A DNA stretch of 20,000 bases, taken from the IMG/VR virus record IMGVR_UViG_2687453178_000004; one strand, written 5' to 3'. The translations under genes were made by a program, and so were the position numbers. Below, piece after piece: positions 1-14,372 of this stretch. This DNA comes from an uncultured virus (IMG/VR IMGVR_UViG_2687453178_000004) (lineage: Duplodnaviria > Heunggongvirae > Uroviricota > Caudoviricetes). The notes under the pieces are model-generated. The model worked only from the letters and a program-made list of their open reading frames with translations, ran no database searches and had not been told where the DNA came from. Position 1 is the stretch's first letter. Each line of letters opens with the position of its first letter.

Positions 1-617
1 TCTAAATACTCAAGCTTTCCGGTGTGGTGGCAAACCATGCCAAAACTCGACTCGATTCGTTTCTCAAGTCGGTCAATAAACTCCTGCTCTAGTTCTGTAG
101 GTTTATCGCCACGTTCTTCCAGCTCTTTGAGGAAGTCAGCTAATTCATCTTTGTATTGCGTGTAGCACTCAAGCGCCTGAAGAGCGGCAAGCTTATGCAC
201 TTCTAACTTAAATTCGTCATCGACTTGATGAGAGTATTTAACTAGGTTGCCAAATGCTTTAGTCATCAAGCCATGCACGAAAGCGTTGCTATTTCCCTTT
301 GGAGCGCCAGCGCCAGCTCGACGGCCACCGTGTCCATTTTTGGCACTTGATTGATTCGCGGTTTTCTTGCGTTTGATTTTGGTTTTGGGCGGAGTGATCC
401 CTTTGGGTTGTAATTTTTCGCCCTGAACTTCTTCGTTGTTCGCGTTCTGTTCGCTTGGTTTGTTCTCTTTTCTCTGTAACAGTTTGTTATTTAAGTATTT
501 TCTTGCTGTGGAGTAGACTAAACCATTGCGAACACAAAACGTCTTAACGTCAACGCCAGTTTCTTCGTATTCGCTAAGGTATTGTTTTTTAATGCGTTCC
601 CAATTAATTCTCGCCAC
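1..617 (-). CDS. Phage terminase small subunit, 3'-truncated by the window (not in the ORF track)
   Basis: Manual translation from GTG at 617 is open to the edge: MARINWERIKKQYL...CVRNGLVYSTARKYL (HTH-like)...GGRRAGAGAPKGNSNAFVHGL, matching the GAPxGNxNAxxHG motif of small terminases. Confidence 0.8.
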   Translation of the reverse strand, partial: MARINWERIKKQYLSEYEETGVDVKTFCVRNGLVYSTARKYLNNKLLQRKENKPSEQNANNEEVQGEKLQPKGITPPKTKIKRKKTANQSSAKNGHGGRRAGAGAPKGNSNAFVHGLMTKAFGNLVKYSHQVDDEFKLEVHKLAALQALECYTQYKDELADFLKELEERGDKPTELEQEFIDRLEKRIESSFGMVCHHTGKLEYL

Positions 618-655
618 TTCTCTAACTCCGAGTGTTCAATTGCGTCAACATATTA

Positions 656-1078
656 TCACTGTTCAGTGTTCATTGTTTTCGTTCGAGGATCAAAGGCACG
701 TTCTAACCAGCCTCTAAGCTGGCCTAAGTTGTCCGATGCAATCTCAATAACAATCCAGCCTAAAAGCTGCGCTTCGTTCATCTTCTCTCTGTCGTTTGCA
801 AAGCCAACGCCGCGAGTGTGACGCCCATTTGAATGAGTACCGCCGTGAACCTCCAAGGCAATCTTTAAGTCGGGCCAAGCGTAATCCATTCGCCATTTGC
901 GAGTCGGATGAAATAGAACTTCAGTTTGATATGGTGGCAAGCCGATAAGGTTGCGCTGAACACGCGCATGTAGCTTCTGGTAAGCCTTGCTAATGTCCCT
1001 TTGCTGTTTGGTCGGTGTTTTGGCTTGGCTTTCGATAAAAGCCTTTCCTAAGTGTCTGACGGGGATATAAACGGCCAT
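656..1078 (-). CDS. Phage PD-(D/E)XK-type endonuclease (Vsr/DUF559-like)
   Basis: Motif EVLFHPTRKWRMDYAWPDLKIALEVHGG...D.EK.NEAQLLGW. ATG 1078 chosen over GTG 1090. Confidence 0.75.
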   Translation of the reverse strand: MAVYIPVRHLGKAFIESQAKTPTKQQRDISKAYQKLHARVQRNLIGLPPYQTEVLFHPTRKWRMDYAWPDLKIALEVHGGTHSNGRHTRGVGFANDREKMNEAQLLGWIVIEIASDNLGQLRGWLERAFDPRTKTMNTEQ

Positions 1079-1118
1079 ATCTGTTCTCACTTGTGAACTT
1101 TATGACACGAATGATAAC

Positions 1119-1144
1119 AAAAAAGCCAGCATTAAAGCTGGCTT
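1119..1144 (-). terminator. Intrinsic terminator
   Basis: AAGCCAGC-attaaa-GCTGGCTT stem with a T-run on the minus strand. Confidence 0.7.
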
Positions 1145-1170
1145 GTTTAGTTTAAATATATTTTCGAGGA

Positions 1171-1296
1171 TTATTTTTTATCTTTAAATACACCTCGTTT
1201 ACGAGCGATGAATGCACCCATAAAAAGAATGGCAAAGTATTCCACGGCTATTAAGATGCAATTGAACATTTCTTGAGTCATTGCTTCAGCGTTCAT
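1171..1296 (-). CDS. Small 41-aa membrane protein (not in the ORF track)
   Basis: GGAGG RBS, then MNAEAMTQEMFNCILIAVEYFAILFMGAFIARKRGVFKDKK*: one hydrophobic segment and a basic tail. Confidence 0.65.
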   Translation of the reverse strand: MNAEAMTQEMFNCILIAVEYFAILFMGAFIARKRGVFKDKK

Positions 1297-1320
1297 GCTA
1301 ACAACCTCCCGAACAAATAA

Positions 1321-1902
1321 TTACTCTACATCTACATGGTTCATGTGGAACTCAATCAGATATTCCTCATCTTCTTGGTAGAACTGCAAAGAGTAGTCTG
1401 AGCGTTCGATACATTTGAATTTGCTGTTCTCTTCCATATCCGGCGCGTAAAAGTCGTATTTCTTGTTTAGGAATGCTTTCACTCTTTCTTTGCTAGAGAA
1501 GTAATTAGTATGCGTTGATAGCGGTTCACCTCGCTTAGTAGAAACGCGCACCACTTCATAGATAGTAATGCCTTGGCGGTATTCTGGACGCTCACACTCA
1601 AACACTTCTAGGCGGTTTTGCTTCCAAGCAAGGGCTTTGATTGCGTTACCCTTAACGGCTTCCAATGCTTCACGCGCTTCGTTCTCTGAATCCCAAGAAC
1701 CACACCAGCAGTAAGCAATGTCTAAGCAATCTTGTTGGATTGGTGACGCTTCGTTGTAGAAGTTACAAACGGCCTTTGCAGTTGCCTCAACGCCAGATTT
1801 AGAAAGATTCATTAGTAGATTGCCTGTTTGCGCCACCAGCTCTTTAAGATCAGCAATAGCAGCAGTAGCCAGTTTGATTTGTTTTTCTTTTAAGTTGGTC
1901 AT
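1321..1902 (-). CDS. Hypothetical phage protein
   Basis: Long ORF; ATG 1902 has GAGGA 8 nt upstream and its own promoter. Confidence 0.7.
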   Translation of the reverse strand: MTNLKEKQIKLATAAIADLKELVAQTGNLLMNLSKSGVEATAKAVCNFYNEASPIQQDCLDIAYCWCGSWDSENEAREALEAVKGNAIKALAWKQNRLEVFECERPEYRQGITIYEVVRVSTKRGEPLSTHTNYFSSKERVKAFLNKKYDFYAPDMEENSKFKCIERSDYSLQFYQEDEEYLIEFHMNHVDVE

Positions 1903-1947
1903 TTTGGTCATCCTCGTGTCGAAAGGTGCAATTTTGTTTGCATGTAA

Positions 1948-1976
1948 AATATAGCTCCGTTGTTTTCGTTTGTAAA
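1948..1976 (-). promoter_or_regulatory. Sigma70-type promoter TTTACA-17-TATATT, overlapped by an 11-bp inverted repeat (1960-1970 / 1988-1998)
   Basis: Read directly; identical hexamers recur at 11230-11258. Confidence 0.65.
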
Positions 1977-2018
1977 CAAAAGACACGAACGAAAACAAAA
2001 TATTTTTTGAGGATGATC

Positions 2019-2072
2019 AAAAAAGGCCGCTATTGCGACCTTTAGGCATAAAAAAACCGCCTCGAAAGGCGG
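2019..2072 (-). terminator. Two tandem intrinsic terminators downstream of the TA operon
   Basis: CCGCCT-cgaa-AGGCGG (2057-2072) and GGCCGC-tatt-GCGACC (2025-2040), each with a T-run on the minus strand. Confidence 0.75.
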
Positions 2073-2088
2073 CTTTTAATCATCAGTT

Positions 2089-2424
2089 TTATAAGAACCG
2101 GATGCAGTAGTCCACTAGGGTTTTCTGCAAATCTTGCTTATCACTAATCAAAACCATGGCGTAAACCGTATCTGTCGCATCGTCGTATTGATAGATAAGT
2201 TTGAACCCATCAAAACTAAACTGACGAAAGTGATACACTCCAAGCTGAGTTAGCTCATAACAAGCCGGATATATGGCCGGATTGCTCTCAACGTTCTGCT
2301 CGAACGTCTCAATCAAAGTTTCAATTCTCTCTACTACGCTAGTGGAATCATTCCATTGTGAGTAGTAGTCAATACGTTCTTCTGCTGTGTTAGCGAACGT
2401 TTCCGTATAAACAACATTGGCCAT
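2089..2424 (-). CDS. Type II toxin, RelE/ParE superfamily
   Basis: 111 aa; N-terminal VVYTETF...I..Y, FRQFSFDGFKLIYQYD, C-terminal VLISDKQD; downstream of a Phd-like gene. Confidence 0.8.
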   Translation of the reverse strand: MANVVYTETFANTAEERIDYYSQWNDSTSVVERIETLIETFEQNVESNPAIYPACYELTQLGVYHFRQFSFDGFKLIYQYDDATDTVYAMVLISDKQDLQKTLVDYCIRFL

Positions 2425-2436
2425 CTTATGGTCACC

Positions 2437-2679
2437 TTATGATTTCTTGGCGGCCAACCTCTCCTTAAACGAACTCGATGACATTGTGCGACCTTGGGCT
2501 ACGTCCTTGCTACTGATAGTAACAAGCTTCATCAAGGCTACTGCTTGATCGCGCTTTAGTCGTTCTTCGTATGATTCCACCACATAAATCGGCTTACCGT
2601 TTTGTGTGATCGTCATCGCTTCATCTAGCGGGAGATCGGCTGCATTTTTCTTTAAGTAGCTTACCGTCTCAGTGCGCAT
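2437..2679 (-). CDS. Type II antitoxin, Phd/YefM family
   Basis: MRTETVSYLKKNAA...MTITQNGKPIYVVESYE matches the Phd/YefM N-terminal pattern. Confidence 0.88.
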   Translation of the reverse strand: MRTETVSYLKKNAADLPLDEAMTITQNGKPIYVVESYEERLKRDQAVALMKLVTISSKDVAQGRTMSSSSFKERLAAKKS

Positions 2680-2756
2680 GGTTCTTCCTTCGGTATAAGG
2701 GCGAGTAAACCAGCTAAATTTAAAAATTAGTCTGGGATCATTTGTTTGCGTTACTA

Positions 2757-2806
2757 ACTATACACCAAAACCGAGATTAGTCCAAATTTAAACTAAATTT
2801 AGTTTA
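2757..2806 (-). promoter_or_regulatory. TA promoter (TTGGAC-17-TATAGT, 2785-2757) with an adjacent perfect 18-bp palindrome TAAACTAAATTTAGTTTA (2789-2806), likely the antitoxin operator
   Basis: Read directly; Phd/YefM antitoxins autorepress through promoter palindromes. Confidence 0.7.
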
Positions 2807-3063
2807 CGCCCAACTCGGATTGTTCGATTAAGCGCTCTTTATGCTTATTAACCATAAAAACGACTACTTGAAAGAGCTTTTGCAATAGGCATTGCAAACT
2901 CATTTATGCCCCATTGTTGGTTATCACTGAAGCGAATTAACTTCATCTGGATGAAAGTCTCCCTTGCCGACAGCTATCCAAGGTAGTCGAAGTAAGCTTT
3001 TTAAACTATCCGTCATTTTGCAATTCAATATCCATCACCTCTCATTAACCTATTGATTATCAA

Positions 3064-3092
3064 TTGAACTGTAATTGGAAAGATTGCATGAT
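3064..3092 (+). promoter_or_regulatory. Candidate Pc-like promoter for the cassette array (TTGAAC-17-CATGAT)
   Basis: Correct spacing but a weak -10; lies about 40 bp upstream of the first crossover point. Confidence 0.35.
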
Positions 3093-3117
3093 AGGAGTAT
3101 GGAAGGCGGCTAAAATC

Positions 3118-3136
3118 CGTATAGAAAGCGTTAGCT
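3118..3136 (+). other. Left recombination junction of the cassette array (attI-like or secondary site): CGTATAG-AAAGC-G|TTAGCT
   Basis: GTTAGCT (3130-3136) is the exact reverse complement of AGCTAAC, which opens attC1 (3501-3507). No VCR-like body upstream. Confidence 0.7.
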
Positions 3137-3159
3137 TAAATCATTAACAAGGATGTGTA

Positions 3160-3501
3160 ATGAGAAATAGAAAATGGATATTTGCAGCTATTTTGCTCAT
3201 TGGTGGACCTTCACTATTGCCATTTAGTTTGGAAGTGATATCCCTAATTGAGTTACTAGGCTTTTTGGGGTTATGGACAATTTATTCATCCTACGCTGAA
3301 TACTTGGTGAATCACCCTAGATTCAAAAGAGGTCTGCGTTTAGCCACTAGTTGGGATTTTCAGCCGCAAATGCTGTTCTCTCCGAGTGAACTTAAGGAAT
3401 GTCCCCAGTTAGTTTTTCATATGCTTCCAGTTCAGAGTGTAATAGTTTGGACTTTGAATATTCTGTTTTGGGGTGGTCTGGCTTGGTGCTACATAATTTA
3501 A
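3160..3501 (+). CDS. Cassette 1: hypothetical membrane protein, 113 aa
   Basis: AAGGA RBS; hydrophobic N- and C-terminal segments; the stop codon runs into the inverse core site. Confidence 0.8.
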   Translation: MRNRKWIFAAILLIGGPSLLPFSLEVISLIELLGFLGLWTIYSSYAEYLVNHPRFKRGLRLATSWDFQPQMLFSPSELKECPQLVFHMLPVQSVIVWTLNILFWGGLAWCYII

Positions 3502-3626
3502 GCTAACAAATTGTTCAAGAGGGATTCGCAACGCGTGGCATTTTTACTATGCGTTGGTTTTAGTGATTAAGGTGGCTTGCGGCGGCATCGGTATTGCGTT
3601 GCTCACCCCTTAACAAGGCGTTATGC
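3501..3626 (+). repeat. attC site 1 (Vibrio VCR/VXR-type, 126 bp)
   Basis: AGCTAAC-AAATTGTTCAAGAGGGATTCGCAACGCGTGGCATTTTT...GCGTTGCTCACCCCTTAACAAGGC-GTTATGC. Confidence 0.95.
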
Positions 3627-3714
3627 ATTTTGAGGCGAAGGATGTATGGAAATAGATTTGCATCATCCCATTCTGTATAATGCAGCTTTCATTTAACTTT
3701 CTAGTTAAGTAACC

Positions 3715-4137
3715 ATGAAAACTGATGACATTACTGAAGTATCTTTATCATTTGAGCTATATAACGAGATGAAACAATGGTGTAGTAAACAGAAATTGTT
3801 TACTACATCATATAACCATGGTTGGAAACCTTTTAAAGACGGTCAAGAAATTTTAGTCGACCGTACTTATACCATTAACTTTTGTTTTCAAAGTACAACT
3901 ATTGCAGATAAACATGGACGTCAAAATACCTTCTATAAAATAAAGCGAGGTGGTAGACCTACTACTCGATATGGGCAAAACAGCAGTCCTGAAGATAAGG
4001 AGCGTCTGCGTTCAGAAACTCCTTCGTACGAAGCTATGATTTATCCTGCCTTAACACGTTGTCAATCTCAAATCAGAAAAGTTAAACGAGGTTTAACTTT
4101 AGAAGCTTTGAATGATCCTTCAAATATAGCGTTTTAA
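3715..4137 (+). CDS. Cassette 2: hypothetical protein, 140 aa
   Basis: Single ORF between attC1 and attC2; candidate own promoter TAGATT-17-TATAAT at 3653-3681. Confidence 0.75.
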   Translation: MKTDDITEVSLSFELYNEMKQWCSKQKLFTTSYNHGWKPFKDGQEILVDRTYTINFCFQSTTIADKHGRQNTFYKIKRGGRPTTRYGQNSSPEDKERLRSETPSYEAMIYPALTRCQSQIRKVKRGLTLEALNDPSNIAF

Positions 4138-4171
4138 GCAGTTAATACTGATATGTCTAACCCCAGAAAAT

Positions 4172-4297
4172 GCATAACAAACAATTTAAGAGCGATTCAG
4201 CACGCTTGGCATTTTTGGTTTGAGTTTAGTTTAGTGTTTACGGTGGTCAAATTAGGTGTTGTGGTCGCGTGCTTCACACCTTAACAGGGCGTTATGC
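4172..4297 (+). repeat. attC site 2 (126 bp)
   Basis: GCATAAC-AAACAATTTAAGAGCGATTCAGCACGCTTGGCATTTTT...GCGTGCTTCACACCTTAACAGGGC-GTTATGC. Confidence 0.95.
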
Positions 4298-4341
4298 CAC
4301 ATATTTAGTTTGCCGAGATAGAAAATTAATTAGGTTGTAAA

Positions 4342-5586
4342 ATGAGCAAAGATGACAAGAAAACAGATTTTATCGGCAAGGAAGAAAACAATTTAAAGAC
4401 TTTCTTTGATTTAAATCACATAAAATCGAAATCTGAAAGTGAGTACACGAAAAGGGTTTGGAAAAGCCTTAGCAGCGATAGAGATGATGGAAAGTTTGAC
4501 GATATTTTCTCTGATGTGTTTGAAAGTGTATTTAAAAATATTTCTGCTAAAGTTTCTGATTCAGTAATAAAAGCAGTCGACGATGAGGCAAGTCGTAAGA
4601 AAGTAATCCGAGAGCTGAAGAATCATTACAATAATGAAAGCCTCACATTGATCTTGGGGGCAGGGGTTTCAATGGATCTTGGTTTACCATCATGGGACGA
4701 ATTGCTGCGTAGATTGTTAGCAAAAACGCTTGATAGTGCGGATAAAGAAAGTACTGTGATGGCAGCGATGTTTAATTCAGTTTTTGGTCCAAGTAGCTTA
4801 ATAGCGGCGCGCTACTTGAAACTTCACTTTGAGAAAGAGAAGCATGAAAAAAATGGGAGGAAGTTCCCTTTTGAAACTGAAGTTCGCAAAGCTCTATACG
4901 AGAACTTTAATGAGGTAGAAACGCCTATCTATAAAGCGATTGTACAACTATGTGTATCTCCAGGAAAGAATCCAAGTTTGGATTCTGTTATCACTTACAA
5001 CTACGATGATATTTTGGAAGAAAAGCTTAAAGCGTTGGACTTGGGGATCAAATATAAAAGTATTTACACCTTGGGGATGAATCCGAGAAAAGATGAGCTT
5101 CCAATCTATCATGTACATGGTTATCTTCCTCGTTCTGGAAACGTCACGGATAAGCATGCCGTTATCCTTTCTGATGATAGTTATCATAAGCAGTATATGG
5201 ACCTCTATCACTGGAGTAATTTGGTTCAGATAAACAAGTTTAAGGACTCTAATTGTTTGTTTATTGGGCACTCTTTTTCAGATCCAAATTTAAGACGTCT
5301 TTTAGATGTAGCAAAATCTCAACGTGGGCATGATAAAACCCAACATTATGTAATAAAACGTAGATACAACGTCGATAAAGTAAAAGAGACTCTTAAAGAA
5401 TTACTAGTAAAGGAAAAATTAGTAGATGTACTTAATCATTCAGATGAATTAGATGCAGTTGCATCTGGTTTAGTAAAGACAGTGCATAAATTCGAAGAGA
5501 ATGATGCGATATCTTTTGGTGCCGAGATAATTTGGGTTAACGAATTTTCAGAAATATCAGATATTATCGAGAGCATTCCAAAGTAG
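4342..5586 (+). CDS. Cassette 3: SIR2-family (SIR2_2-like) protein, probable NAD+-degrading anti-phage effector
   Basis: Motifs [35 protein letters not shown] and [16 protein letters not shown]. Confidence 0.9.
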
Positions 5587-5713
5587 CATAACAAAGCATT
5601 TAAGACGGATTCCCAACGCTCGGCATTTTCGGTTTGCTTTGAATTTAGTGTTTACGGCACAATACTTTAAGTGTGGTGGTCTGCGTTGCTCACACGTTAA
5701 CACTGCGTGATGT
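5586..5713 (+). repeat. attC site 3 (128 bp) with a degenerate 3' end
   Basis: GCATAAC-AAAGCATTTAAGACGGATTCCCAACGCTCGGCATTTTC...GCGTTGCTCACACGTTAACACTGC-GTGATGT; GTG replaces GTT at 5707-5709. Confidence 0.88.
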
Positions 5714-5937
5714 TATTGGAAGGCCGTGGTGGAACATCAGTTTAAATTTCGCATCGGAAGTCGGCTCACTTGATGTCCAGTATTAATGGTTACACAGTGT
5801 GACCATAGACTCGCTAAGTCTTCAGGGAAAGAACAGCGTACACACACGTATACACGGTATGTACGCTCTACATGCATTCTTTCACACGCAAATAGACATG
5901 GTTTTTACTGAATACTCAATCTCGGTGGCTGATATTA

Positions 5938-6147
5938 CTATCGTTCCAACATGGAAAGTTTGTTTTCGATATCTTTGGCTATGACTTGCAGCTTGCTAGA
6001 AAGCCGTGATCGAATGATGCACATAAGAATCTGCTTATCTTTTTTGTACCAAGTGTAAAGCGTATTACGGCCTCGCCCCGACTCGTCCTCAAGGTCGGCA
6101 ACTGTTAAACCAAACTGCTTTAAATACTCTGCTAGATCGTATCCCAT
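5938..6147 (-). CDS. Small HTH DNA-binding protein (Cro/XRE-like)
   Basis: LKQFGLTVADLEDESGRGRNTLYTWYK helix-turn-helix pattern. Confidence 0.7.
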   Translation of the reverse strand: MGYDLAEYLKQFGLTVADLEDESGRGRNTLYTWYKKDKQILMCIIRSRLSSKLQVIAKDIENKLSMLER

Positions 6148-6151
6148 AGGC

Positions 6152-6436
6152 TCACACCGTCTTTAGATGCTCATTACACTCTTTAATAACGTCCACCAGC
6201 TTATCTATCGTTAAAGAGCTGGCCGAACGCCCCTCAAATTCAGCAAATAACTCATGCAATACCATGCACTTTGTTTGCTGCTTTAGAAACTTTGCTTCGT
6301 CTAGCATTCGGGTAAGGCGCTTGATTGCCTCTGCCTTGCGAATAACTAACTGAACCGCACTTAACTTAGGCGCACTCAAATAACCGATCACGGCACCTAA
6401 ATCGCGCTCTAATTGCTTAATCTCACTCACGCTCAT
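6152..6436 (-). CDS. Hypothetical phage protein
   Basis: In-operon ORF; ATG 6436 overlaps the end of the upstream gene. Confidence 0.6.
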   Translation of the reverse strand: MSVSEIKQLERDLGAVIGYLSAPKLSAVQLVIRKAEAIKRLTRMLDEAKFLKQQTKCMVLHELFAEFEGRSASSLTIDKLVDVIKECNEHLKTV

Positions 6437-6923
6437 CGGTTTTTGCCTCTTCTTCGATATATTCCGAAACAGTCTCGTTAAAGAACACCGTGAAATCCGC
6501 ACGAAAATCACTAGGAACGTCGCAACCAAGCTCCATAACGTATTCGCAAGCTTCCGAGAACTTAGGGCAATCTGGATACATTAGAATGATTTTAGCCAGT
6601 TCAAAACACGTAATTTCTGCGTTTTTTTGACTGACGGCATGATTAACAAGCGATTGCCAAGCAATGTGATTCATCACTGAGTAATTGCAAAACTGCGGCT
6701 TAGTTTGAATGGCCGCTTTAACTAGAGTCGGCAACGTTCCGGTGCGCTCTGCAATTACGTTCGCCAGAATGGTTTTCATTGATTCGCAATTTAAGTCAAA
6801 CCATAGAGCATCAAGTTCCGCTTGGTCGCTGTAGGCTAGTTGGACGTAAGCGCTTGCAAATTCTGGATTATCAAAACCAAGTACGTCTTGAAAAACAATG
6901 GTCGCTGCGTCAATGGTATTCAC
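6423..6923 (-). CDS. Hypothetical phage protein
   Basis: AAGGAG RBS, GTG start, 166 aa. Confidence 0.7.
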   Translation of the reverse strand: MNTIDAATIVFQDVLGFDNPEFASAYVQLAYSDQAELDALWFDLNCESMKTILANVIAERTGTLPTLVKAAIQTKPQFCNYSVMNHIAWQSLVNHAVSQKNAEITCFELAKIILMYPDCPKFSEACEYVMELGCDVPSDFRADFTVFFNETVSEYIEEEAKTDERE

Positions 6924-6933
6924 TACTTTCTCC

Positions 6934-7326
6934 TTAGCTGTCTTGCTTACTAACTTCGCCTAGTTCGGCCTCTTCCGGTGTAACTGCGTCGATAACAGTT
7001 ATCTGGCCGGACTCTTCAAGCAACTTACTGAGTCGGGCCACTTCTTCTTGTAGTTCTTTGATTTGGCTTTCTTGTTGCTTGGTTCGGAGTAAGTAGTAAT
7101 TCGAGTTAGCGATACCAAAAGAAATGTTTTCCATAACGATGTTCGATACATCCTCATGGTCATGTAGAAGAGCCAAGGCTTTAGCCGCTGCTAAGGAACA
7201 AAGCTCACTAACGCTAACAGGTTGCAGCGTGTTGGCTTCCATCTGTTTAAGTAGTGATCTTGATTTCGAAAGAATCCCCTCTGCTAGTAGCTGTTCTTGC
7301 GTTGACAGTACAATCTCGCGTGTCAT
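6934..7326 (-). CDS. Hypothetical protein with a coiled-coil segment
   Basis: 130-aa ORF containing QQESQIKELQEEVARLSKLLEE. Confidence 0.65.
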   Translation of the reverse strand: MTREIVLSTQEQLLAEGILSKSRSLLKQMEANTLQPVSVSELCSLAAAKALALLHDHEDVSNIVMENISFGIANSNYYLLRTKQQESQIKELQEEVARLSKLLEESGQITVIDAVTPEEAELGEVSKQDS

Positions 7327-7507
7327 AGCTGGATATTTCCTCGTTGTTCTCGTAGATAGTGACAGACTTGTACGAACCGACTAGCTTGGCTAGCCGGATC
7401 ATAAACTCATCAAGGTTTAAGCGTTTCGCATCAGTGAATACGATTTGACGAGCTTGAAGTAATTCGGATCTTTTCTGCTCCGTCGTCTTTTGATTCGTCG
7501 CTTTCAT
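7247..7507 (-). CDS. Hypothetical protein (overlaps both neighbours by about 80 nt)
   Basis: Fills the operon gap; start codon uncertain. Confidence 0.4.
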   Translation of the reverse strand: MKATNQKTTEQKRSELLQARQIVFTDAKRLNLDEFMIRLAKLVGSYKSVTIYENNEEISSYDTRDCTVNARTATSRGDSFEIKITT

Positions 7508-7859
7508 TGTGGTGTTCAGAATCCTTGTATTGGCAATCTTCACAATCGCACTCTGTAAGTTTCACGCTGCTCAAATCCACACCTGCCATCTTTGCAAGAG
7601 CAATAGCTGTTACCTTTGGAAGAAGTTGAGGCATAAGCTCTTTGATCACCTCGCTCAAAGCACAACCGATGTGATCAGCGAGATTATTGTTAACCGTAGG
7701 AAACTGTTCGTGTTTAATGCCTAGACCTACTCTTCCATCATCCTGAATCTCTGGATTAATGGTTAAGGCGATTTTAAAACCGTCCCTTTGCACAAACTCT
7801 TCAAGAAAGTTCATTAGTTCTGGTCGTGTTTTGCTGTTTAGCACTTTTTGGTCGGTCAT
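7431..7859 (-). CDS. Hypothetical protein with a C-terminal CxCxxC motif
   Basis: ATGA coupling with the upstream stop; ECDCEDC motif. Confidence 0.65.
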   Translation of the reverse strand: MTDQKVLNSKTRPELMNFLEEFVQRDGFKIALTINPEIQDDGRVGLGIKHEQFPTVNNNLADHIGCALSEVIKELMPQLLPKVTAIALAKMAGVDLSSVKLTECDCEDCQYKDSEHHNESDESKDDGAEKIRITSSSSNRIH

Positions 7860-8062
7860 TTGTTCATACCTATTTGTTGAATTAGCCACAAAGGGCTTAG
7901 AAGAAAGCCGCTCGTCATAAGCAGCGTTCCAATCAAAAAAATTATGGTCGATGTCTTACTTGTTAACTTTCGATTCATAGAATCATAGAACGACAACACC
8001 GAAATCATAAAAAGAGCGTGACCAACAGAGAAGATCACGAATCCAAACAAAACAACAATCAA
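7856..8062 (-). CDS. Small two-TM membrane protein
   Basis: Two hydrophobic segments; AGGGG RBS, TTG start. Confidence 0.55.
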   Translation of the reverse strand: MIVVLFGFVIFSVGHALFMISVLSFYDSMNRKLTSKTSTIIFLIGTLLMTSGFLLSPLWLIQQIGMNK

Positions 8063-8101
8063 GCCTATTTTCCCCTGTGTTTTGTCTGGTAATACCTTGC
8101 G

Positions 8102-8398
8102 TCACTTTGTGTTGCGCCATTGTGCCATAGCAATAATTTCTTTTGTTGGCGCTAGCTGGTGGCGGCCAAATGGGATTTTGTTTTGTCGCATTATCTCGAT
8201 GACTTTAGGAACTAAGTGGATACTTAGCCCTACTACTCGGTAATGCTCAATCTGTGGGATTGCTCGGCCTAGCTCGAACGCTAGGTACTCAACTGCATCT
8301 TGCTCTGAGCAATGTCTATGGATAGAAAGGAGACGAATAGCTGCGTTAAATCCTATTGCCGCGATTTCATCTCTCGGTGAAACTTTGTTTTTGGTCAT
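8102..8398 (-). CDS. Hypothetical protein, possibly HTH
   Basis: In-operon ORF; YLAFELGRAIPQIEHYR is HTH-like. Confidence 0.6.
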   Translation of the reverse strand: MTKNKVSPRDEIAAIGFNAAIRLLSIHRHCSEQDAVEYLAFELGRAIPQIEHYRVVGLSIHLVPKVIEIMRQNKIPFGRHQLAPTKEIIAMAQWRNTK

Positions 8399-8467
8399 AT
8401 CAGTCATACCTTGCAATATTCATTGAACAAAAATAATTGTATCCGTTCGATGATTATACAAACAAAC

Positions 8468-8926
8468 CTAAATATTGGAATTTATATTTTCAAAAATGTT
8501 GCGTTGCTTCGCGTCCTCTCGCACCAACTCTTCAAAGCTCCATATTCCGGTAAGCTCTCCAATCTGATCGAGCGCTACTAGTGGCAATTTAGACCACGCA
8601 TATTCCACCAGCTCTAAATCTGTACCAACCTTGTTGAAGAATAATTGCTTGCGACTACCTAGCGGATCGTGTCGTACTGGTTCGCCTTCTGGTATTGGGT
8701 TGCCGCCAGTTGCGCCTCGATGGTGAACGGGACAAAGGCCATAACCAAAAAAGTGAGCTAGTGGCTTAACCGCACCTTTCTCACTCGAATGATGAAACTC
8801 AACGTATTCCAACGGTTCAGGCCAATCATTCGGGTGACCAAGCTTATCGCAAGCTATACAACCACAACGTTGAATCACGGCCTGTCCATAGATCTGTTCT
8901 GCCTTTGTCGGTTTGCGACCTTTCAT
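8468..8926 (-). CDS. Ref-like (recombination enhancement) HNH/Zn nuclease
   Basis: MKGRKPTKAE, GCIAC, EFHH and AHFFGYGLCPVHHRG resemble the P1 Ref family; AGGAG RBS before ATG 8926. Confidence 0.75.
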   Translation of the reverse strand: MKGRKPTKAEQIYGQAVIQRCGCIACDKLGHPNDWPEPLEYVEFHHSSEKGAVKPLAHFFGYGLCPVHHRGATGGNPIPEGEPVRHDPLGSRKQLFFNKVGTDLELVEYAWSKLPLVALDQIGELTGIWSFEELVREDAKQRNIFENINSNI

Positions 8927-8951
8927 TGCTCTTCTCCTGTTTTCTAGGCAC

Positions 8952-8984
8952 AAAAAAAGCGCTGCATTCACTGAATGCAACGCT
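8952..8984 (-). terminator. Intrinsic terminator
   Basis: Minus strand reads AGCGTTGCATTCA-g-TGAATGCAGCGC followed by TTTTTTT. Confidence 0.75.
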
Positions 8985-9003
8985 CTAACTCAAAAGCGAT
9001 ACT

Positions 9004-9276
9004 CTAAAGCGTCACTGTTAACGTCTCGGCTTGTTCTTTTAGATCTTCAATCATGGCTCTTGGATAGGAACCAAGCTCCTGAATGTTGATAGGCAGTAAC
9101 GTATCTGCGTCAACTCCTAAGTGATCGGCTATAGCGGCCATTATTTTCTTAGTTGAGTAAGGCTTCATTCTCTGGCTCAGAGCAACTTGCTGATAGCCAG
9201 CTTGCGCAAACACGCCTTTTTTGTAGTAGTGATAAGTGATCAGGTAGTAGGTTAATACTTGGTTCGGATTACTCAT
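9004..9276 (-). CDS. Hypothetical phage protein
   Basis: 90-aa in-operon ORF. Confidence 0.65.
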   Translation of the reverse strand: MSNPNQVLTYYLITYHYYKKGVFAQAGYQQVALSQRMKPYSTKKIMAAIADHLGVDADTLLPINIQELGSYPRAMIEDLKEQAETLTVTL

Positions 9277-9289
9277 CTAATGCGTTCCC

Positions 9290-10102
9290 CTAAATAACTG
9301 CTAATGTCTCTTGGTATTTTTTGAATAGTTCTAACACTCGCCCTTTGGCCGCAAATCGCCCTAACTGTCCACCAGCAAACCATAATCCGGTATCTGATAG
9401 TGAGAGAAGTTGAATTTCTTTCTTGAGCGCGGCTTTAAAGTCCTCAATGAGCACCATCTTAGTGAGAACGGGGAACGTCCCACTATTCACTGTGATTGGT
9501 CTAGTTGGAACGTCATAAGCTTCCACTAGCTCTTTAGCCTTTTGATTGGATAGCCCGTAGTGAATACCCAAACCAGAAACAATCGCATATCCAGCCGGAA
9601 TAAAATTGCGCTCTAACTCGTCAATTCGTCGATGAGCGTCGTTGGCCGTTTCAATGGCCTGTTTGGTCTGCTTCTCCTGTTCAACTAGAGCCTTTGCTTG
9701 CTCAAGTAACCATTCCGCGCTTGTTCGCGGCTGTTCGGTCAATGAATAGGAGCCATGCTTTCGAATGTTTGGTAACACTTCGTGAGTGATCCAACGCTGA
9801 AACGGCTTACCCTTTGGCGCTTGGCTGGAAAGAATCAAGTCATACATACCAGCCTCGTTTATTACCGTAAGCCGTTGATTTAACTCTAACGTCGAGCAGC
9901 TCGACGTTGGAAATTCGGCCATTAATTGCTTTAGCGGCTTCTTATCTTGTTCTGAAACATACCGATTAACCGCATCACGAGCGTTCACAAGGCCAAGCAT
10001 TGCGCCGACCTCGTTCCCGATAAACCAAGGATCGTTATCCATATCAATGATGACGGTCAGATCCCCAAAAATAGGTTTGTTGAATTTGGTTATGTTCATC
10101 AA
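9290..10102 (-). CDS. BRO-N domain phage antirepressor-like protein
   Basis: FNKPIFGDLTVI...PWFIGNEVGAMLG, INEAGMYDLILSS, FQRWITHEVLPNIRKHGSY. Confidence 0.9.
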   Translation of the reverse strand: MMNITKFNKPIFGDLTVIIDMDNDPWFIGNEVGAMLGLVNARDAVNRYVSEQDKKPLKQLMAEFPTSSCSTLELNQRLTVINEAGMYDLILSSQAPKGKPFQRWITHEVLPNIRKHGSYSLTEQPRTSAEWLLEQAKALVEQEKQTKQAIETANDAHRRIDELERNFIPAGYAIVSGLGIHYGLSNQKAKELVEAYDVPTRPITVNSGTFPVLTKMVLIEDFKAALKKEIQLLSLSDTGLWFAGGQLGRFAAKGRVLELFKKYQETLAVI

Positions 10103-10142
10103 CGTAATTCCTTAAAACATGGTTCTTTTGGTCATACCCTGC

Positions 10143-10334
10143 TTACACACGAACACGCACTATTGGCTTAACTTCAGTCATGCAATGAATATCAATAGAG
10201 TCGCCTTGCGGCGGCTCATAACACACGACTTTGAAATCATTCGGATCTACTGGCTTTTTAGGTCTAATGAATTGACTATATCTCTTCCCGTTAAGCTTGA
10301 AATCGTACTGATAAGGCAAGTCTCGTAATTTCAT
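10143..10334 (-). CDS. Hypothetical protein, 63 aa
   Basis: GAGGT RBS, in operon. Confidence 0.6.
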   Translation of the reverse strand: MKLRDLPYQYDFKLNGKRYSQFIRPKKPVDPNDFKVVCYEPPQGDSIDIHCMTEVKPIVRVRV

Positions 10335-10336
10335 GC

Positions 10337-10486
10337 CTACCTCACCAATTTGAGTGATTTCAATCTCGCAACGATTACGCCAGCTAGAAAGTAAATCATC
10401 ACCGTAAATTCGATGCCGAACTTAGCCAGCATGTAGATCGCTAGTGCGCCGTGTATCGCTACTAGAACGGTTTCACTAAAACGCAT
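10337..10486 (-). CDS. Small 49-aa membrane protein (not in the ORF track)
   Basis: AGGTGAG RBS; MRFSETVLVAIHGALAIYMLAKFGIEFTVMIYFLAGVIVARLKSLKLVR*; exactly fills the operon gap. Confidence 0.65.
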   Translation of the reverse strand: MRFSETVLVAIHGALAIYMLAKFGIEFTVMIYFLAGVIVARLKSLKLVR

Positions 10487-10493
10487 AACTCAC

Positions 10494-10799
10494 CTAGAAA
10501 CGAAAACGATGCTTGATTTGTTGAATGTTGTGGAACACTGGCAAGTGAAGCTTCTTTGCGTAAGCAACTTCAGCGAATGCGCCAACGCTAGTTTTCCAGT
10601 TCGGCAAGCAATAAATCGCGTCAACTTCACGAATCATTGCCATTGCTATATCCATGTACCCTTGTTCGCTTAATCCTTCTGGCAACATCAGTGTGTGAAC
10701 GGGAACGTGACCGATGCACTGAATCTTTAGGGCTGCGCGTTTAAATTGCGCTTCGCTATCAGGCACATCGGTAACGCCACCAGCGATATAAATCCTCAT
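10494..10799 (-). CDS. DUF4406 family protein (nucleoside 2-deoxyribosyltransferase-like fold)
   Basis: MRIYIAGGVT, YMDIAMAMIREVDAIYCLPNWKTSVGAFAEVAYAKKL. Confidence 0.85.
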   Translation of the reverse strand: MRIYIAGGVTDVPDSEAQFKRAALKIQCIGHVPVHTLMLPEGLSEQGYMDIAMAMIREVDAIYCLPNWKTSVGAFAEVAYAKKLHLPVFHNIQQIKHRFRF

Positions 10800-11197
10800 C
10801 CCTTAATGCTCTCCATTTCGCGTCTAAGGGCGTTGATTTTTAGCTCAATACGCTCAATTTCTTCGGTACTGGATTCTTTAGTGATTTGATGTTGCAGCTC
10901 CGAAATCTCGCGTGGGATCTCTCCTACTCGCCATAGATAAAAATCAAGCTTTTCGATTTTCTTATGTCGGATAGCTTCTAGCTGGTCTTTGTCTACGAGC
11001 TGGTAGATCTGCGCTAGCATGATTTCAACGTCAGCAATTTCTTCCATCACTTCAGTGATCGAGCCTTTGCCTTGTCGAAAGTGGTGGTACAGGGCAACGG
11101 CCAATTCATTTAGCTCTGAAATGGCTTGTTCAACTTGGCGTCTGCGCCCCATTGTTAACAATACTTGGCAAGCTTTTTGGTCTGGTAATTTGGTCAT
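10796..11197 (-). CDS. MazG-like NTP pyrophosphohydrolase
   Basis: Q...AISELNEL and MEEIADVEIMLAQI motifs. Confidence 0.75.
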   Translation of the reverse strand: MTKLPDQKACQVLLTMGRRRQVEQAISELNELAVALYHHFRQGKGSITEVMEEIADVEIMLAQIYQLVDKDQLEAIRHKKIEKLDFYLWRVGEIPREISELQHQITKESSTEEIERIELKINALRREMESIKG

Positions 11198-11229
11198 TGA
11201 TTGTTGCCTTTTGTTTTGTTTCGAAAACA

Positions 11230-11258
11230 AATATATGATCGAAATTAACGTTTGTAAA
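11230..11258 (-). promoter_or_regulatory. Internal promoter TTTACA-17-TATATT
   Basis: Same hexamers as 1948-1976; adjacent near-palindrome TTGTTTCGAAAACAA. Confidence 0.65.
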
Positions 11259-11259
11259 T

Positions 11260-11625
11260 TTAACAGACCGAAAATTTAGATTCTTCTTTTGCGCGGTGAA
11301 GAGCCTCTAAAGCAACATCAAACGCTTCAATTTCCATTCGCCCGTATGAGTTACACGTATTGCCGATCATGCTAGCCATGCCAGCTAGTGTTTTTAAGTC
11401 CTGTTCTAAGTTCTCACTCAATACTTTGAAGTCTCTTTGCTTCGCTAGCTTGTGAAGGCGAGATACGCTCAAGAATGCGTTGCTGGTGGCTTCTAGGTAA
11501 TTCACTAGCGCTTTAGCAAACTCCTGATCCATTGCTGGCACATCGTTGTTGATTGCGATTTCTTCAAAGCCGTACTCGTGCATTTTGGCGATCAAAATCT
11601 TCATTTGCTGCTTGATATCGTTCAT
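11260..11625 (-). CDS. Hypothetical phage protein
   Basis: ATGA-coupled to the P-like gene. Confidence 0.7.
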   Translation of the reverse strand: MNDIKQQMKILIAKMHEYGFEEIAINNDVPAMDQEFAKALVNYLEATSNAFLSVSRLHKLAKQRDFKVLSENLEQDLKTLAGMASMIGNTCNSYGRMEIEAFDVALEALHRAKEESKFSVC

Positions 11626-12311
11626 CGTTTCATGGCCCTTAGTTGGTCAATTCGATCAGAAAACTCGTGTCGTTCTCCTGAACGTCGATACTCTTCTCGA
11701 ACCTTGTCACTTACCGAAACTCGACTGTGTACTGGTAGCGCTTTTAGCTCATCCTCTGCAAGTCTCAAGCGGCCAGCTCGTTCTTTAGCGTCTGCATCCC
11801 GTAGATACTTGATGAAAAGTTCTAACTCTCCACCAGCTCTAGCTCGTTTCAAATCCCAATCACAATTTTGTGCTACCCATTTCTCGGCTCTCCCCATTGG
11901 CGCACGATTCAAAAATCGGTCATAGGCTTCGCGGTATTCCGCTTCGGTTCGCTGGTTAATCTGAGTCATCAACTCACCAAGCGATGGAGGGAAGCGGTTA
12001 CCGTTGGATAGTCGGTCAAAGCAGATCGCTAGTATCCGGTTAAGTTGCAAATCATTCAGGGTCGAAAGGAAGTTTCCCCATGCCGTAGTAATCACTGCGC
12101 CATTCATCGTGACCCATGTCTTGCCGTACATTTCCGTTAGCGTGTCCCATAGGGCTGTTAGCTTGGGATTCAATCCATTGGCGCTGTTGTTGTACTCGTG
12201 CAAATTTGATTGCTGGCGATTGGTTTGGGTAAATCCGCAACCATTCAGGGAAGATTGACTGATCGGCATTCTCGCCATAACCGATTCCATTGATTTCAAA
12301 TTTCTGTCCAT
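11622..12311 (-). CDS. Replication protein P-like (putative helicase loader)
   Basis: Directly after the initiator; LWDTLTEMYGKTW...W...L...FPPSLGEL pattern; GAGGT RBS. Confidence 0.6.
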   Translation of the reverse strand: MDRNLKSMESVMARMPISQSSLNGCGFTQTNRQQSNLHEYNNSANGLNPKLTALWDTLTEMYGKTWVTMNGAVITTAWGNFLSTLNDLQLNRILAICFDRLSNGNRFPPSLGELMTQINQRTEAEYREAYDRFLNRAPMGRAEKWVAQNCDWDLKRARAGGELELFIKYLRDADAKERAGRLRLAEDELKALPVHSRVSVSDKVREEYRRSGERHEFSDRIDQLRAMKR

Positions 12312-13011: not shown

Positions 13012-13083
13012 ATAATTACCTCGTCACAGCACTAACATTTGGTGCAAACTTAAAGACCGCCGCCTCACACGGCGGTTTTTTTT
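12987..13083 (+). ncRNA. OOP-like antisense unit: promoter TTGCGT-18-TATAAT (12987-13016), RNA about 13023-13083, terminator 13056-13083
   Basis: Plus-strand promoter over the O start and a plus-strand terminator ACCGCCG-7-CGGCGG-TTTTTTTT, both inside a minus-strand operon; same position as lambda oop. Confidence 0.65.
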
Positions 13084-13085
13084 AC

Positions 13086-13400
13086 TTAAAATTCACTATT
13101 TGTTCGAATGTCTTTGTAGATAGAACTTGCGCGTTCAGCCTGTTCTTCTTCGTTGTATTCGTCTTTAGGTTCAGTCAAACCACACTTTTCAACTAACGCT
13201 TGTCTGAGTGATTCAAGTTTCTCGACTGGCACTCCCAATGCGTTGCTGAGTTCATCGACATCTTTCCACCAGTTGAAACTTGTCGCGCTCAAAACGCAGT
13301 AAGCTCCTAACTCTTCAAGCGTCAAACCACGCTTAAAAATCATCGTTGGAACGACAGCCATGTTGTTTAGAACGAAAAAGCGATTTTCAGGAATGTTCAT
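13086..13400 (-). CDS. Putative winged-HTH protein (cII position)
   Basis: GAGGT RBS; LTLEELGAYCVL...VDELSNALGVPVEKLESLRQALVE. Confidence 0.65.
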   Translation of the reverse strand: MNIPENRFFVLNNMAVVPTMIFKRGLTLEELGAYCVLSATSFNWWKDVDELSNALGVPVEKLESLRQALVEKCGLTEPKDEYNEEEQAERASSIYKDIRTNSEF

Positions 13401-13630: not shown

Positions 13631-13691
13631 TGGTGTGTGAATTTCACATACATATACAAGCGTAATATTTAAACATCAAACAGGGGGCATT

Positions 13692-14327: not shown

Positions 14328-14372
14328 TTTGTGGTGATAGATATCACTCACAATCAGCTTTTAAAAGGATTT

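What the first reader, a model, noticed from the sequence alone, without database searches (positions are those of the whole stretch)
3050..3136. attI-like landing site with a candidate Pc promoter at the head of the array
Seen: the first cassette starts exactly at a G|TT crossover (3130/3131) and no attC body precedes it. The upstream CGTATAG-AAAGC-GTT has the same box/5-bp spacer/box geometry as the attC ends (CCTTAAC-AAGGC-GTT). A TTGAAC-17-CATGAT promoter candidate points into the array. Inference: this is a phage-borne attI mimic or a secondary (attG-type) site with its own promoter, and it would be the functional core of a minimal integron.
Basis: partly seen in the sequence, partly recalled or inferred. 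Interest (0 to 1): 0.78.

Follow-up and report, generated by a model that had tools for sequence, protein, structure and literature searches.

The report
Integrase-less integron landing site in phage
A Vibrio prophage carries a genuine integron cassette-docking site with its own promoter but no integrase, on a small portable module that also heads cassette arrays in many Vibrio plasmids and chromosomes.

Summary
Cassette 1 starts at G3130|T3131: its first bases plus the G closing its own attC give GTTAGCTT, the exact complement of that attC's R'' box. No attC lies upstream. The site is neither a mimic nor a chance attG-type GTT. Its 17-nt core (3117-3133) occurs letter for letter beside divergent intIA genes in 18 of 85 loci fetched with that word. 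About 38 nt are 87% identical to attIA of two Vibrio chromosomal integrons. In the window the core is the right end of a ~245-bp module (about 2888-3130) with no integrase. The same module occurs in 51 Vibrionaceae and other plasmids, 39 of 285 Vibrio species genomes and several viral contigs, nearly always just before cassettes. TTGAAC-17-CATGAT (3064-3092) matches only 8 of 12 consensus positions, but copies found independently of it keep TTGA, the 17-nt spacing and CAnnAT. Three sister phage arrays share 97-98% identical flanks with the window and none of its cassettes. Best reading: an integrase-less attIA+Pc platform served in trans by host IntIA. Recombination and transcription were not shown. 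Cassette 3 encodes a SIR2 defence-type protein.

The parts
2888..3130 (+). Portable integrase-less platform module. It runs from a left-end hairpin (GGCAT 2888-2892 pairing with ATGCC 2906-2910, then CCATT) to the crossover G. The left edge is uncertain within 2876-2888.
   Evidence: Homology with sister provirus G001 stops at 2875. In an alignment of 17 module-bearing loci, homology ends on the right exactly at G|TT and on the left at a shared CTAAC..TGCCCCATT motif set in otherwise unrelated flanks. A profile of the module finds complete copies in other genomes.
3052..3064 (.). Near-perfect palindrome ATTGATTATCAAT overlapping the -35 hexamer. It is a possible operator. No function was tested.
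   Evidence: Read directly from the sequence. TGATTA is among the most conserved columns in the 12 copies found independently of the promoter. The palindrome is absent from the pNDM-116-14 / P. aeruginosa plasmid variant.
3064..3092 (+). Candidate Pc promoter: -35 TTGAAC 3064-3069, 17-nt spacer, -10 CATGAT 3087-3092. The start site is predicted near 3099.
   Evidence: Twelve copies were ascertained by the attI core or by BLAST, not by the promoter. Of these, 10 keep TTGA at -35, 10 keep the 17-nt spacer, and 11 keep CA-N-N-AT in register. The variants are CATTAT, CATCAT, CACTAT and CAATAT. No RNA evidence exists.
3097..3132 (+). attIA-type recombination site core, with crossover between G3130 and T3131. 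It contains the small inverted repeat CGGC-TAAAA-TCCG (3107-3119) and the box-spacer-box CCGTATAG-AAAGC-GTT.
   Evidence: It is 87% identical over 37-38 nt to the sites beside intIA in L015 and L016. The exact 17-mer 3117-3133 lies about 200 bp from the start of a divergent intIA in 18 loci. The V. anguillarum attIA shares GTATAGAnAGCGTTAG.
3131..3620 (+). Cassette 1: ORF 3160-3501 (113 aa, hydrophobic, no family match) plus an attC ending at G3620.
3621..4291 (+). Cassette 2: ORF 3715-4137 (140 aa, no family match) plus an attC ending at G4291.
4292..5707 (+). Cassette 3: ORF 4342-5586 (414 aa, SIR2_2 domain, ThsA/LmuA/Dsr1-like) plus the terminal attC. The R' triplet of that attC reads GTG, not GTT.
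   Evidence: Pfam SIR2_2 E=1.4e-19. PADLOC ThsA E=4.7e-22 and LmuA E=6.5e-18. Terminal junction G|TGATG.
5708..5926 (+). Fixed right flank of the array. It is shared with sister phages L022 and L024 and absent from G001.

Best explanation
Window 3050-3136 is the working end of an integrase-less integron platform. An attIA-type recombination site (core 3097-3132, crossover G3130|T3131) lies just downstream of an outward sigma-70-type promoter (TTGAAC 3064-3069 / CATGAT 3087-3092). Both sit on a ~245-bp portable module (about 2888-3130). The phage has no integron integrase. Cassettes are most likely captured at this site by the IntIA of the host's chromosomal integron acting in trans. IntIA is SOS-induced (PMC8191803), and SOS is probably also the phage's induction signal, because its CI-like repressor has a weak S24 peptidase match. 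The promoter then transcribes the first cassettes, here including a SIR2 defence-type gene. Older cassettes are probably lost by homologous recombination between attC repeats, because the terminal attC has a dead R' (GTG) and is chimeric. Shown: site identity, homology to intIA-linked attIA, wide distribution of the module, absence of intI, and different cassettes in near-identical phage backbones. Inferred: recombination in trans, promoter activity, the SOS coupling and the loss mechanism.
For: (1) The crossover is exact. The cassette start and the R'' box of its own attC are complementary for all 3 cassettes.

(2) The site is homologous to true attIA. It is 87% identical over 37-38 nt to the site about 215 bp from the intIA start in L015 and L016. 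Those integrases score over the TIGR02249 cut-off. The control integrase of V. anguillarum scores 494 bits against a cut-off of 265.

(3) A census with the exact core word covered 85 loci read: 5 viral (18-mer) and 80 metagenomic (17-mer; 88 stretches matched, 80 were listed). Of these, 18 have intIA directly upstream and divergent, 8 have the module instead and no intI, 5 have attC but too little upstream sequence to classify, and 54 have none of these and are taken as chance word matches.

(4) The module has no integrase. tblastn with IntIA finds nothing at E<0.1 in the window or within 3 kb of the module in 9 other loci. The phage Int (18837-20000) has no TIGR02249 match. None of 5 viral records passes the TIGR02249 cut-off, including one that is 98% complete.

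(5) Distribution: 51 plasmid records with 71 places, namely Vibrio 44, Photobacterium 4, Pseudomonas 2 and Shewanella 1. 39 of 285 Vibrio species genomes match. With the 21-mer, 7 genome contigs and 7 viral contigs match. In all 17 aligned loci the sequence diverges immediately after G|TT into TTRRRY-like cassette starts. attC arrays follow in the same orientation in 10 of the 17; several of the others are cut short by contig ends.

(6) Turnover: sister phage records L021, L022 and L024 (L019 is identical to L024) match window 1-3134 at 97.6-98.8%. L022 and L024 also match from 5589 onward at 96.6-97.8%. Between these flanks only the attC repeats match. There are 4 different arrays in 5 records and no cassette ORF is shared.

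(7) Promoter conservation in copies found independently of it.

(8) Literature, passages read: IntIA inserts cassettes preferentially at attIA, endogenous SOS-induced levels suffice, and a promoter next to attIA expresses new cassettes (PMC8191803). A CALIN with its own attI has been reported in Shewanella prophage M16-3 (PMC9892861).
Against: No recombination or transcription was observed. The four RNA runs laid on the stretch gave zero depth across 2886-3474, because the strains sampled lack this module. This says nothing either way about the promoter.

The promoter matches only 8 of 12 consensus positions and is not listed by the consensus scan.

The terminal attC is chimeric. Its 5' part is cassette-specific, while the last ~25 nt and the G|TGAT flank are shared by the window and L022. 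So at least part of the cassette exchange went through homologous recombination rather than IntI.

Exchange with another module-headed array, using the module and an attC as homology arms, would give the same picture without any activity at this site.

The host genome is not held. It is therefore unknown whether the host's IntIA matches this attIA type.

Only the last ~38-55 nt of the module resemble the native intIA-attIA spacer. The origin of the left ~190 nt is unresolved.
Confidence: 0.68

Rival explanations
1. Passive relic. A piece of an integron (attI, promoter and cassettes) was picked up once by the phage lineage and the attI no longer recombines. The differences between sister phages arise from RecA-type homologous recombination with other module-headed arrays or with the host's chromosomal integron, using the module on the left and attC repeats on the right as homology arms.
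For: The terminal attC is chimeric and has a fixed 3' tail and flank. The module and VCR-like attCs are abundant repeats in Vibrio genomes and plasmids, so homology arms are available. RNA reads of related strains map onto the attC in large numbers, which fits many related attC copies in those strains. No integrase lies in cis.
Against: The core is kept letter for letter with intIA-linked sites across very different replicons, and its flanking promoter elements are conserved. This suggests selection on the site rather than decay. Four different arrays sit in 97-98% identical backbones, which means frequent exchange. Published work shows IntIA strongly prefers attIA for insertion (PMC8191803).
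Confidence: 0.22
2. attG-type secondary site. A cassette circle was inserted by an integrase into an ordinary GTT of the phage genome, and the resemblance to attI is coincidental.
For: Integrases can insert cassettes at sites with no more than a GWT consensus (bioRxiv 10.1101/2022.09.11.507474, passages read). The phage lacks intI.
Against: The cassette-less sister provirus does not contain the site at all. The homology break is at 2875, 255 bp upstream of the crossover. The 17-mer core is identical to sites beside intIA in 18 loci. The whole ~245-bp upstream module recurs in 51 plasmids and in 39 of 285 Vibrio genomes.
Confidence: 0.03
3. Eroded tail of an earlier attC. The sequence before 3131 is the 3' end of a degenerate attC belonging to a lost upstream cassette.
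For: The box-spacer-box geometry resembles attC ends. In V. caribbeanicus a divergent copy of the module's promoter part is fused to the 3' half of a real attC.
Against: The attC profile finds nothing upstream of 3131 at E<1e-3. The same core sits directly beside intIA with no cassette before it in 18 loci.
Confidence: 0.03

Closest known systems
attIA / Pc region of Vibrio sedentary chromosomal integrons (V. cholerae paradigm; PMC8191803 and PMC3948777)
   Same: The recombination core is homologous, the crossover is at G|TT, a promoter lies shortly upstream and fires into the first cassette, and the downstream cassettes carry VCR-like attCs. The abstract of PMC3948777, seen in the listing, places the V. 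cholerae Pc start 65 bp upstream of attI.
   Different: There is no intIA next to it. There is no LexA box such as the CTGT-N8-ACAG read beside intIA in L001, L015, L016 and L017. Only the last ~38-55 nt are homologous to the native spacer. The predicted start is about 31 bp rather than 65 bp from the crossover. The site sits inside a phage.
CALIN (cluster of attC sites lacking an integron integrase), in particular the attI-headed CALIN of Shewanella prophage M16-3 (PMC9892861)
   Same: A cassette array without an integrase, inside a prophage, headed by an attI of the host genus's type (passages read).
   Different: Here the attI comes on a discrete promoter-bearing module that recurs in many replicons. 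Sister phages also show different cassettes at the same site. No complete integron lies in the same phage.
attG genomic insertion sites (bioRxiv 10.1101/2022.09.11.507474)
   Same: Cassettes located outside a complete integron.
   Different: attG sites are ordinary genome sequence with a GWT consensus. This site is a conserved attI homologue imported together with its array.
Promoter-bearing gene-less cassettes of Vibrionaceae superintegrons (PMC11014356) and the internal PqnrVC promoter (review PMC8876359)
   Same: Extra promoters that express cassettes far from, or independent of, the platform Pc (passages read).
   Different: Those promoters lie inside cassettes bounded by attC sites. This one lies upstream of an attI-type crossover. 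In P. aeruginosa plasmid CP071948 the right half of the module lies before the qnrVC1 cassette boundary, and the cassette's known 216-bp 5' UTR follows it.

Membership tests
integron attI site (attIA type) | Cassette array begins at a G|TT crossover within the site | tested here: met
   G3130|T3131. The start of cassette 1 is complementary to the R'' box of its own attC. The junction is the same in all 17 aligned loci.
integron attI site (attIA type) | Sequence homology to sites that lie beside an integron integrase gene | tested here: met
   87% identity over 37-38 nt to L015 and L016. The exact 17-mer lies beside intIA in 18 of 85 loci.
integron attI site (attIA type) | Recombined with attC by the cognate IntI | not testable with these tools
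   Only comparative evidence: 4 different arrays in 97-98% identical phage backbones.
complete integron | intI gene adjacent to and divergent from attI | tested here: not met
   No IntI-like frame in the window at E<0.1. The phage Int has no TIGR02249 match. None of 5 related viral records is over the cut-off.
CALIN | Two or more attC sites with no integron integrase nearby | tested here: met
   Three attCs at 3503-3623, 4173-4294 and 5587-5710, with no intI.
Pc cassette promoter | Sigma-70-type promoter upstream of attI, oriented into the array, with a mapped start | tested here: inconclusive
   8 of 12 consensus positions, not listed by the scan. Key positions are conserved in 10-11 of 12 independently ascertained copies. 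RNA runs gave no coverage.
attG secondary site | Native genome sequence, with GWT as the only requirement | tested here: not met
   The site is absent from the cassette-less sister provirus and was imported with the array. It is conserved over ~245 bp elsewhere.
attC site | R''-L''...L'-R' imperfect palindrome matching the attC profile | tested here: not met
   No profile hit upstream of 3131.

The most novel reading that the evidence does not exclude
The ~245-bp module is a widespread, portable, integrase-less integron platform (attIA plus a constitutive Pc). It lets phages and plasmids use the host's SOS-induced IntIA to draw cassettes, including anti-phage defence genes, out of the host's chromosomal integron and express them. 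A temperate phage would then reshuffle its accessory cargo at the moment of induction, and the same platform would have carried qnrVC-type cassettes out of Vibrio onto clinical plasmids.
Probability: 0.4. Interest if true: 0.8.

Novelty: new variant of a known kind. Interest (0 to 1): 0.62.

Why it matters
Integrons are usually pictured as an integrase with its own attI. Cassette arrays without an integrase (CALINs) are mostly treated as debris or as stray insertions. Here a conserved attI-plus-promoter unit without an integrase recurs in 14% of Vibrio species genomes, in dozens of plasmids and in temperate phages. One plasmid is from P. aeruginosa, where the unit directly precedes qnrVC1. In one phage lineage the cargo behind the unit differs between near-identical genomes. 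If the site is served in trans, phages and plasmids can sample the very large cassette pools of Vibrio chromosomal integrons without paying for an integrase. That would give a concrete route for defence and resistance cassettes to leave sedentary integrons. It is directly testable with standard attC x attI assays.

Tried and rejected
1. Remnant of intI in the left 140 bp. tblastn with four IntI proteins against 17 module copies gave only noise; the best relevant hit had E=23. The conserved ATGGGGCA on the minus strand opens frames of only 3-30 codons.

2. Module as a 'collapsed' IntI2-like Vibrio integron. The left hairpin and the following ~50 nt resemble the 3' flank and last codons of the integrase gene in L017 and pVgang (22 of 27, 14 of 21 and 14 of 15 positions). 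An 18-mer is identical to that integron's intI-proximal spacer. The whole-length alignment, however, scores only about 3.5 sd above shuffles, and that integron's real attI crossover is a different sequence. This is kept as a lead only.

3. RNA evidence. The RNA runs listed held only 5-8% of the sampled words. Of the four runs laid, none covers 2886-3474. Reads pile up only on the attC repeat, and one run's contig carries the cassette-less G001-type junction at 2874. There is no verdict on the promoter.

4. Rfam. No family hit in 2680-6160 except a chance-level Ocean-V match at E=0.76.

5. Empty-site search. A 29-mer from the right flank found only the two known sister contigs.

6. No close relative among deposited phages: megablast of 6000-20000 gave no match. 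For 1-8000 the only match was an attC in record MK672802.

7. Alternative promoter ATGATA-17-TAAAAT (3088-3116, 9 of 12). It was rejected because its -10 is not conserved in other copies, which read TAAAAG or TGAAAG.

8. Literature. Searches found no description of this module. They cover open-access text only, and supplements were not opened.

9. Our own earlier findings: none on record.

Full report
**Setting.** The window is part of a temperate Vibrio-type phage or prophage.
- Small terminase subunit at 3-617 (minus strand).
- ParE/Phd toxin-antitoxin pair at 2089-2679 (minus).
- A long minus-strand early operon at 6152-13400, including Ant/Bro, a Ref-like nuclease and a replication initiator.
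- CI-type repressor at 13692-14327.
- MT-A70 methylase, a Rha protein, and a P4-type tyrosine integrase at 18837-20000.
- isrK and C4 antisense RNAs at 17974-18158.

Three plus-strand integron cassettes lie between the toxin-antitoxin pair and the end of the early operon. Their VCR-like attC sites are at 3503-3623, 4173-4294 and 5587-5710.

**The observation.**
- The first cassette starts at T3131, after G3130.
- Joined to the closing G3620 of its own attC, its first bases give GTTAGCTT. This is the exact complement of AAGCTAAC (3500-3507), the R'' box of that attC.
- Cassettes 2 and 3 show the same signature.
- No attC lies upstream.
- The string CCGTATAG-AAAGC-GTT mirrors the attC ends.
- The promoter candidate is TTGAAC 3064-3069, 17 nt, CATGAT 3087-3092. 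It matches 8 of 12 consensus positions, below the scan's threshold. The scan found no excess of promoter-like sites in the region: 2 against 3.4 expected. On its own the promoter is therefore not more than chance would give.

**What the site is.** Record MK672802 is filed as a phage, but it carries infC-rpmI-rplT followed by an integron integrase (494 bits on TIGR02249, cut-off 265) and cassettes. That is the start of the V. anguillarum chromosomal integron. Its attIA reads GTATAGATAGCG|TTAGG, against GTATAGAAAGCG|TTAGC in the window.

Two Vibrio genomes reached through other loci carry intIA with the site GACGGCAAAAAGCCGTATAGAAAGCG|TTA about 215 bp from the start codon. This is 87% identical to the window over 37-38 nt.

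I then searched with the core word alone, so the result is blind to whatever lies upstream. I used the 18-mer in viral contigs and the 17-mer in metagenomes (88 stretches matched, 80 were listed and read). The 85 loci read fall into four groups:

| Group | Loci |
|---|---|
| intIA (79-93% identical to the L015/L016 proteins) directly upstream and divergent | 18 |
| The window's upstream module instead, with no intI | 8 |
| attCs present but too little upstream sequence to classify | 5 |
| None of these; taken as chance matches of a 17-mer in a very large collection | 54 |

The window's core is therefore a genuine attIA-type site. It is not a mimic, not a chance GTT and not an eroded attC.

**The module.** The core is the right end of a discrete unit.
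- BLAST of 2895-3160 against plasmids gives 51 records and 71 places: Vibrio 44, Photobacterium 4, Pseudomonas 2, Shewanella 1. Nearly all matches end at the crossover.
- A 21-mer from the unit finds 7 species genomes and 7 viral contigs.
- A DNA search of one genome per Vibrio species finds the unit in 39 of 285, with up to two copies scored per genome. It occurs on large chromosomes and on small contigs.
- 177 of the same 285 genomes have an integron integrase over the cut-off. In the 17 module-bearing genomes where both positions were listed, the module is never next to the integrase. The nearest case is a complete copy embedded in the cassette array 14.6 kb from intIA.
- In an alignment of 17 loci the sequences are homologous from a left-end motif (hairpin GGCA..CTAAC..TGCC, then CCATT) to the crossover G. 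They diverge at once after TT into different TTRRRY-like cassette starts.
- attC arrays follow in the same orientation in 10 of the 17 loci. Several of the rest are cut by contig ends or by other insertions.
- No IntI is encoded within 3 kb of the module in the loci checked. None of 5 related viral records passes the TIGR02249 cut-off, including one that is 98% complete.
- The window's own integrase is a P4-type phage enzyme with no match to the integron-integrase model.

Only the last 38-55 nt of the module resemble the native intIA-attIA spacer. The LexA boxes read beside intIA in L001, L015, L016 and L017 are absent from the module.

**The promoter.** Support comes from conservation. Twelve copies were found through the attI core or by BLAST, that is, not selected for the promoter.
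- 10 keep TTGA at the -35 position.
- 10 keep the 17-nt spacer.
- 11 keep CA-N-N-AT in register at -10. The two variable positions take several values: CATGAT, CATTAT, CATCAT, CACTAT and CAATAT.

This is the pattern expected if -11A and -7T matter. The better-scoring alternative found by the scan (ATGATA-17-TAAAAT) loses its -10 in other copies. The predicted start near 3099 coincides with the point where homology to the native attIA begins.

The four RNA runs that could be laid do not contain this module. Depth is zero over 2886-3474. Transcription is therefore untested.

**Evidence for use.** The sister provirus G001 is collinear with the window up to 2875 and again from 5927. In between it has 4.3 kb of ordinary minus-strand phage genes and no cassettes. 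The module, the cassettes and 219 bp of right flank therefore entered this lineage as a block.

Other records of the lineage keep the block but not its contents.
- L021, L022 and L024 match window 1-3134 at 97.6-98.8%. L019 is a shorter copy of L024's array.
- L022 and L024 also match from 5589 onward at 96.6-97.8%.
- In between only the attC repeats match.
- Nucleotide and translated all-against-all comparisons of the arrays find no shared cassette ORF. There are four different arrays in five records, with 3, at least 2, 4 and 4 cassettes.
- The cassettes are typical of chromosomal integrons: mostly unknown, with a SIR2 protein here. In a different module-headed array (L018) there are a PD-T7-4 homologue and a GNAT acetyltransferase.

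The right end of the arrays is informative. The terminal attC ends G|TGATG in the window, G|TGATA in L022 and A|TGATA in L024. It therefore lacks the GTT triplet. Its last ~25 nt are shared between the window and L022, while its 5' part belongs to each array's own last cassette.

I read this as follows. Gain occurs at attI. Loss occurs by homologous recombination between attC repeats, which leaves a dead, anchored terminal site. The same chimera is also the main argument for the rival view that all exchange is homologous recombination with other module-headed arrays. These data cannot exclude that view.

**Mechanism proposed.** Published experiments show three things (PMC8191803, abstract and passages read). 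V. cholerae IntIA inserts incoming cassettes almost exclusively at attIA. SOS-induced endogenous levels of the enzyme suffice. A promoter beside attIA expresses the newcomers.

A phage-borne attIA with its own promoter would be served in the same way by the host enzyme. The phage's CI-like repressor has a weak S24 peptidase match, so prophage induction and IntIA expression may share the SOS trigger. That coupling is inference.

**Origin of the module.** This is unresolved. The left hairpin and the next ~50 nt resemble the 3' flank and last codons of an IntI2-like integrase gene (61% identical to IntI2). That gene is plasmid-borne in V. gangliei, in an integron whose first cassette is qnrVC7, and it also occurs in V. 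caribbeanicus.

One Vibrio genome has, in order: the hairpin, the last 41 codons of that integrase, 230 bp, the hairpin again, the module, and at least 11 attCs. This suggests a platform whose integrase was deleted. The overall alignment is only about 3.5 sd above shuffles, however, and that integron's own attI is a different sequence. What fixes the module's left end, and how the module moves, is unexplained.

**Comparison with what is known.** Cassette arrays without an integrase (CALINs) are well known. An attI-headed CALIN has been reported in Shewanella prophage M16-3 (PMC9892861, passages read). attG insertion is a different thing.

I found no description of a conserved, portable attIA-plus-promoter unit in Vibrio phages and plasmids. 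They cover open-access full text only, and supplements were not opened.

I therefore file this as a new variant of a known kind. It is a CALIN headed by a bona fide attIA and Pc on a recurrent module, with comparative evidence of cassette turnover in a phage.

Noticed in passing
window 5786-5917: A ~130-nt non-coding stretch in the fixed right flank of the array has 79-84% matches in intergenic DNA of V. alginolyticus megaplasmids and of a Pseudoalteromonas and an E. coli plasmid. It contains stem-loops and has no Rfam family.
   Followed up: partly
window 5682-5712 (also L022 8730-8765 and L024 8475-8510): The terminal attC of the array has GTG (ATG in L024) instead of GTT at the crossover. 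It is chimeric: the 5' part is cassette-specific and the last ~25 nt are fixed in the lineage. It looks like a locked array end.
   Followed up: partly
window 2876-5926 versus L004 (G001) 2980-7285: The same phage locus, between the ParE/Phd pair and the end of the early operon, holds 4.3 kb of unrelated minus-strand genes in the sister provirus. This is a replacement hotspot.
   Followed up: partly
window 2089-2679: A ParE/Phd-type toxin-antitoxin pair sits directly beside the cassette platform on the opposite strand. Toxin-antitoxin cassettes are known stabilisers of chromosomal integrons; here the pair belongs to the phage backbone, since G001 has it too.
   Followed up: no
window 17974-18158: isrK (66.6 bits) and C4 antisense RNA (64.6 bits) lie in tandem upstream of a Rha-family gene (18209-18817). 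This is a P1/P7-like C4-type immunity arrangement.
   Followed up: no
L123 (P. aeruginosa plasmid CP071948) 3990-4055: The right half of the module (-10 region plus the attIA core) directly precedes the qnrVC1 cassette. It lies beyond the 3' end of intI1 and outside the class 1 array. This is a Vibrio platform fragment carried onto a clinical Pseudomonas plasmid.
   Followed up: partly
L142 (V. gangliei plasmid pVgang) 1-4400; L017: A plasmid-borne Vibrio integron whose integrase is 61% identical to IntI2. It carries qnrVC7, a fos gene and a GNAT cassette, and its attI crossover (..TTAAGAATG|TT) is unlike attIA.
   Followed up: partly
L138 (G040:C1) 3371-3623: A complete module copy lies inside a chromosomal integron array, 14.6 kb from intIA and in cassette orientation. 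About 2.9 kb without attC sites precedes it, and more cassettes follow.
   Followed up: partly
L001/L014 (MK672802, 'Vibrio phage Va_90-11-286_p16'): The deposited phage record contains infC-rpmI-rplT, intIA and cassettes, that is, the start of the V. anguillarum chromosomal integron. PMC9892861 discusses such records.
   Followed up: partly
window 3052-3064: The near-perfect palindrome ATTGATTATCAAT overlaps the -35 hexamer and is highly conserved in most module copies. It is a possible operator for an unknown regulator.
   Followed up: no
L011 3040-3062 and L125 4110-4140: Two module copies have short internal deletions between the direct repeats ATGAAAAGCG and ATAGAAAGCG. In L011 a cassette is joined at the first repeat (GAAAAGCG|TTATGTG). 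This hints at a second usable crossover or IntI-binding box.
   Followed up: no
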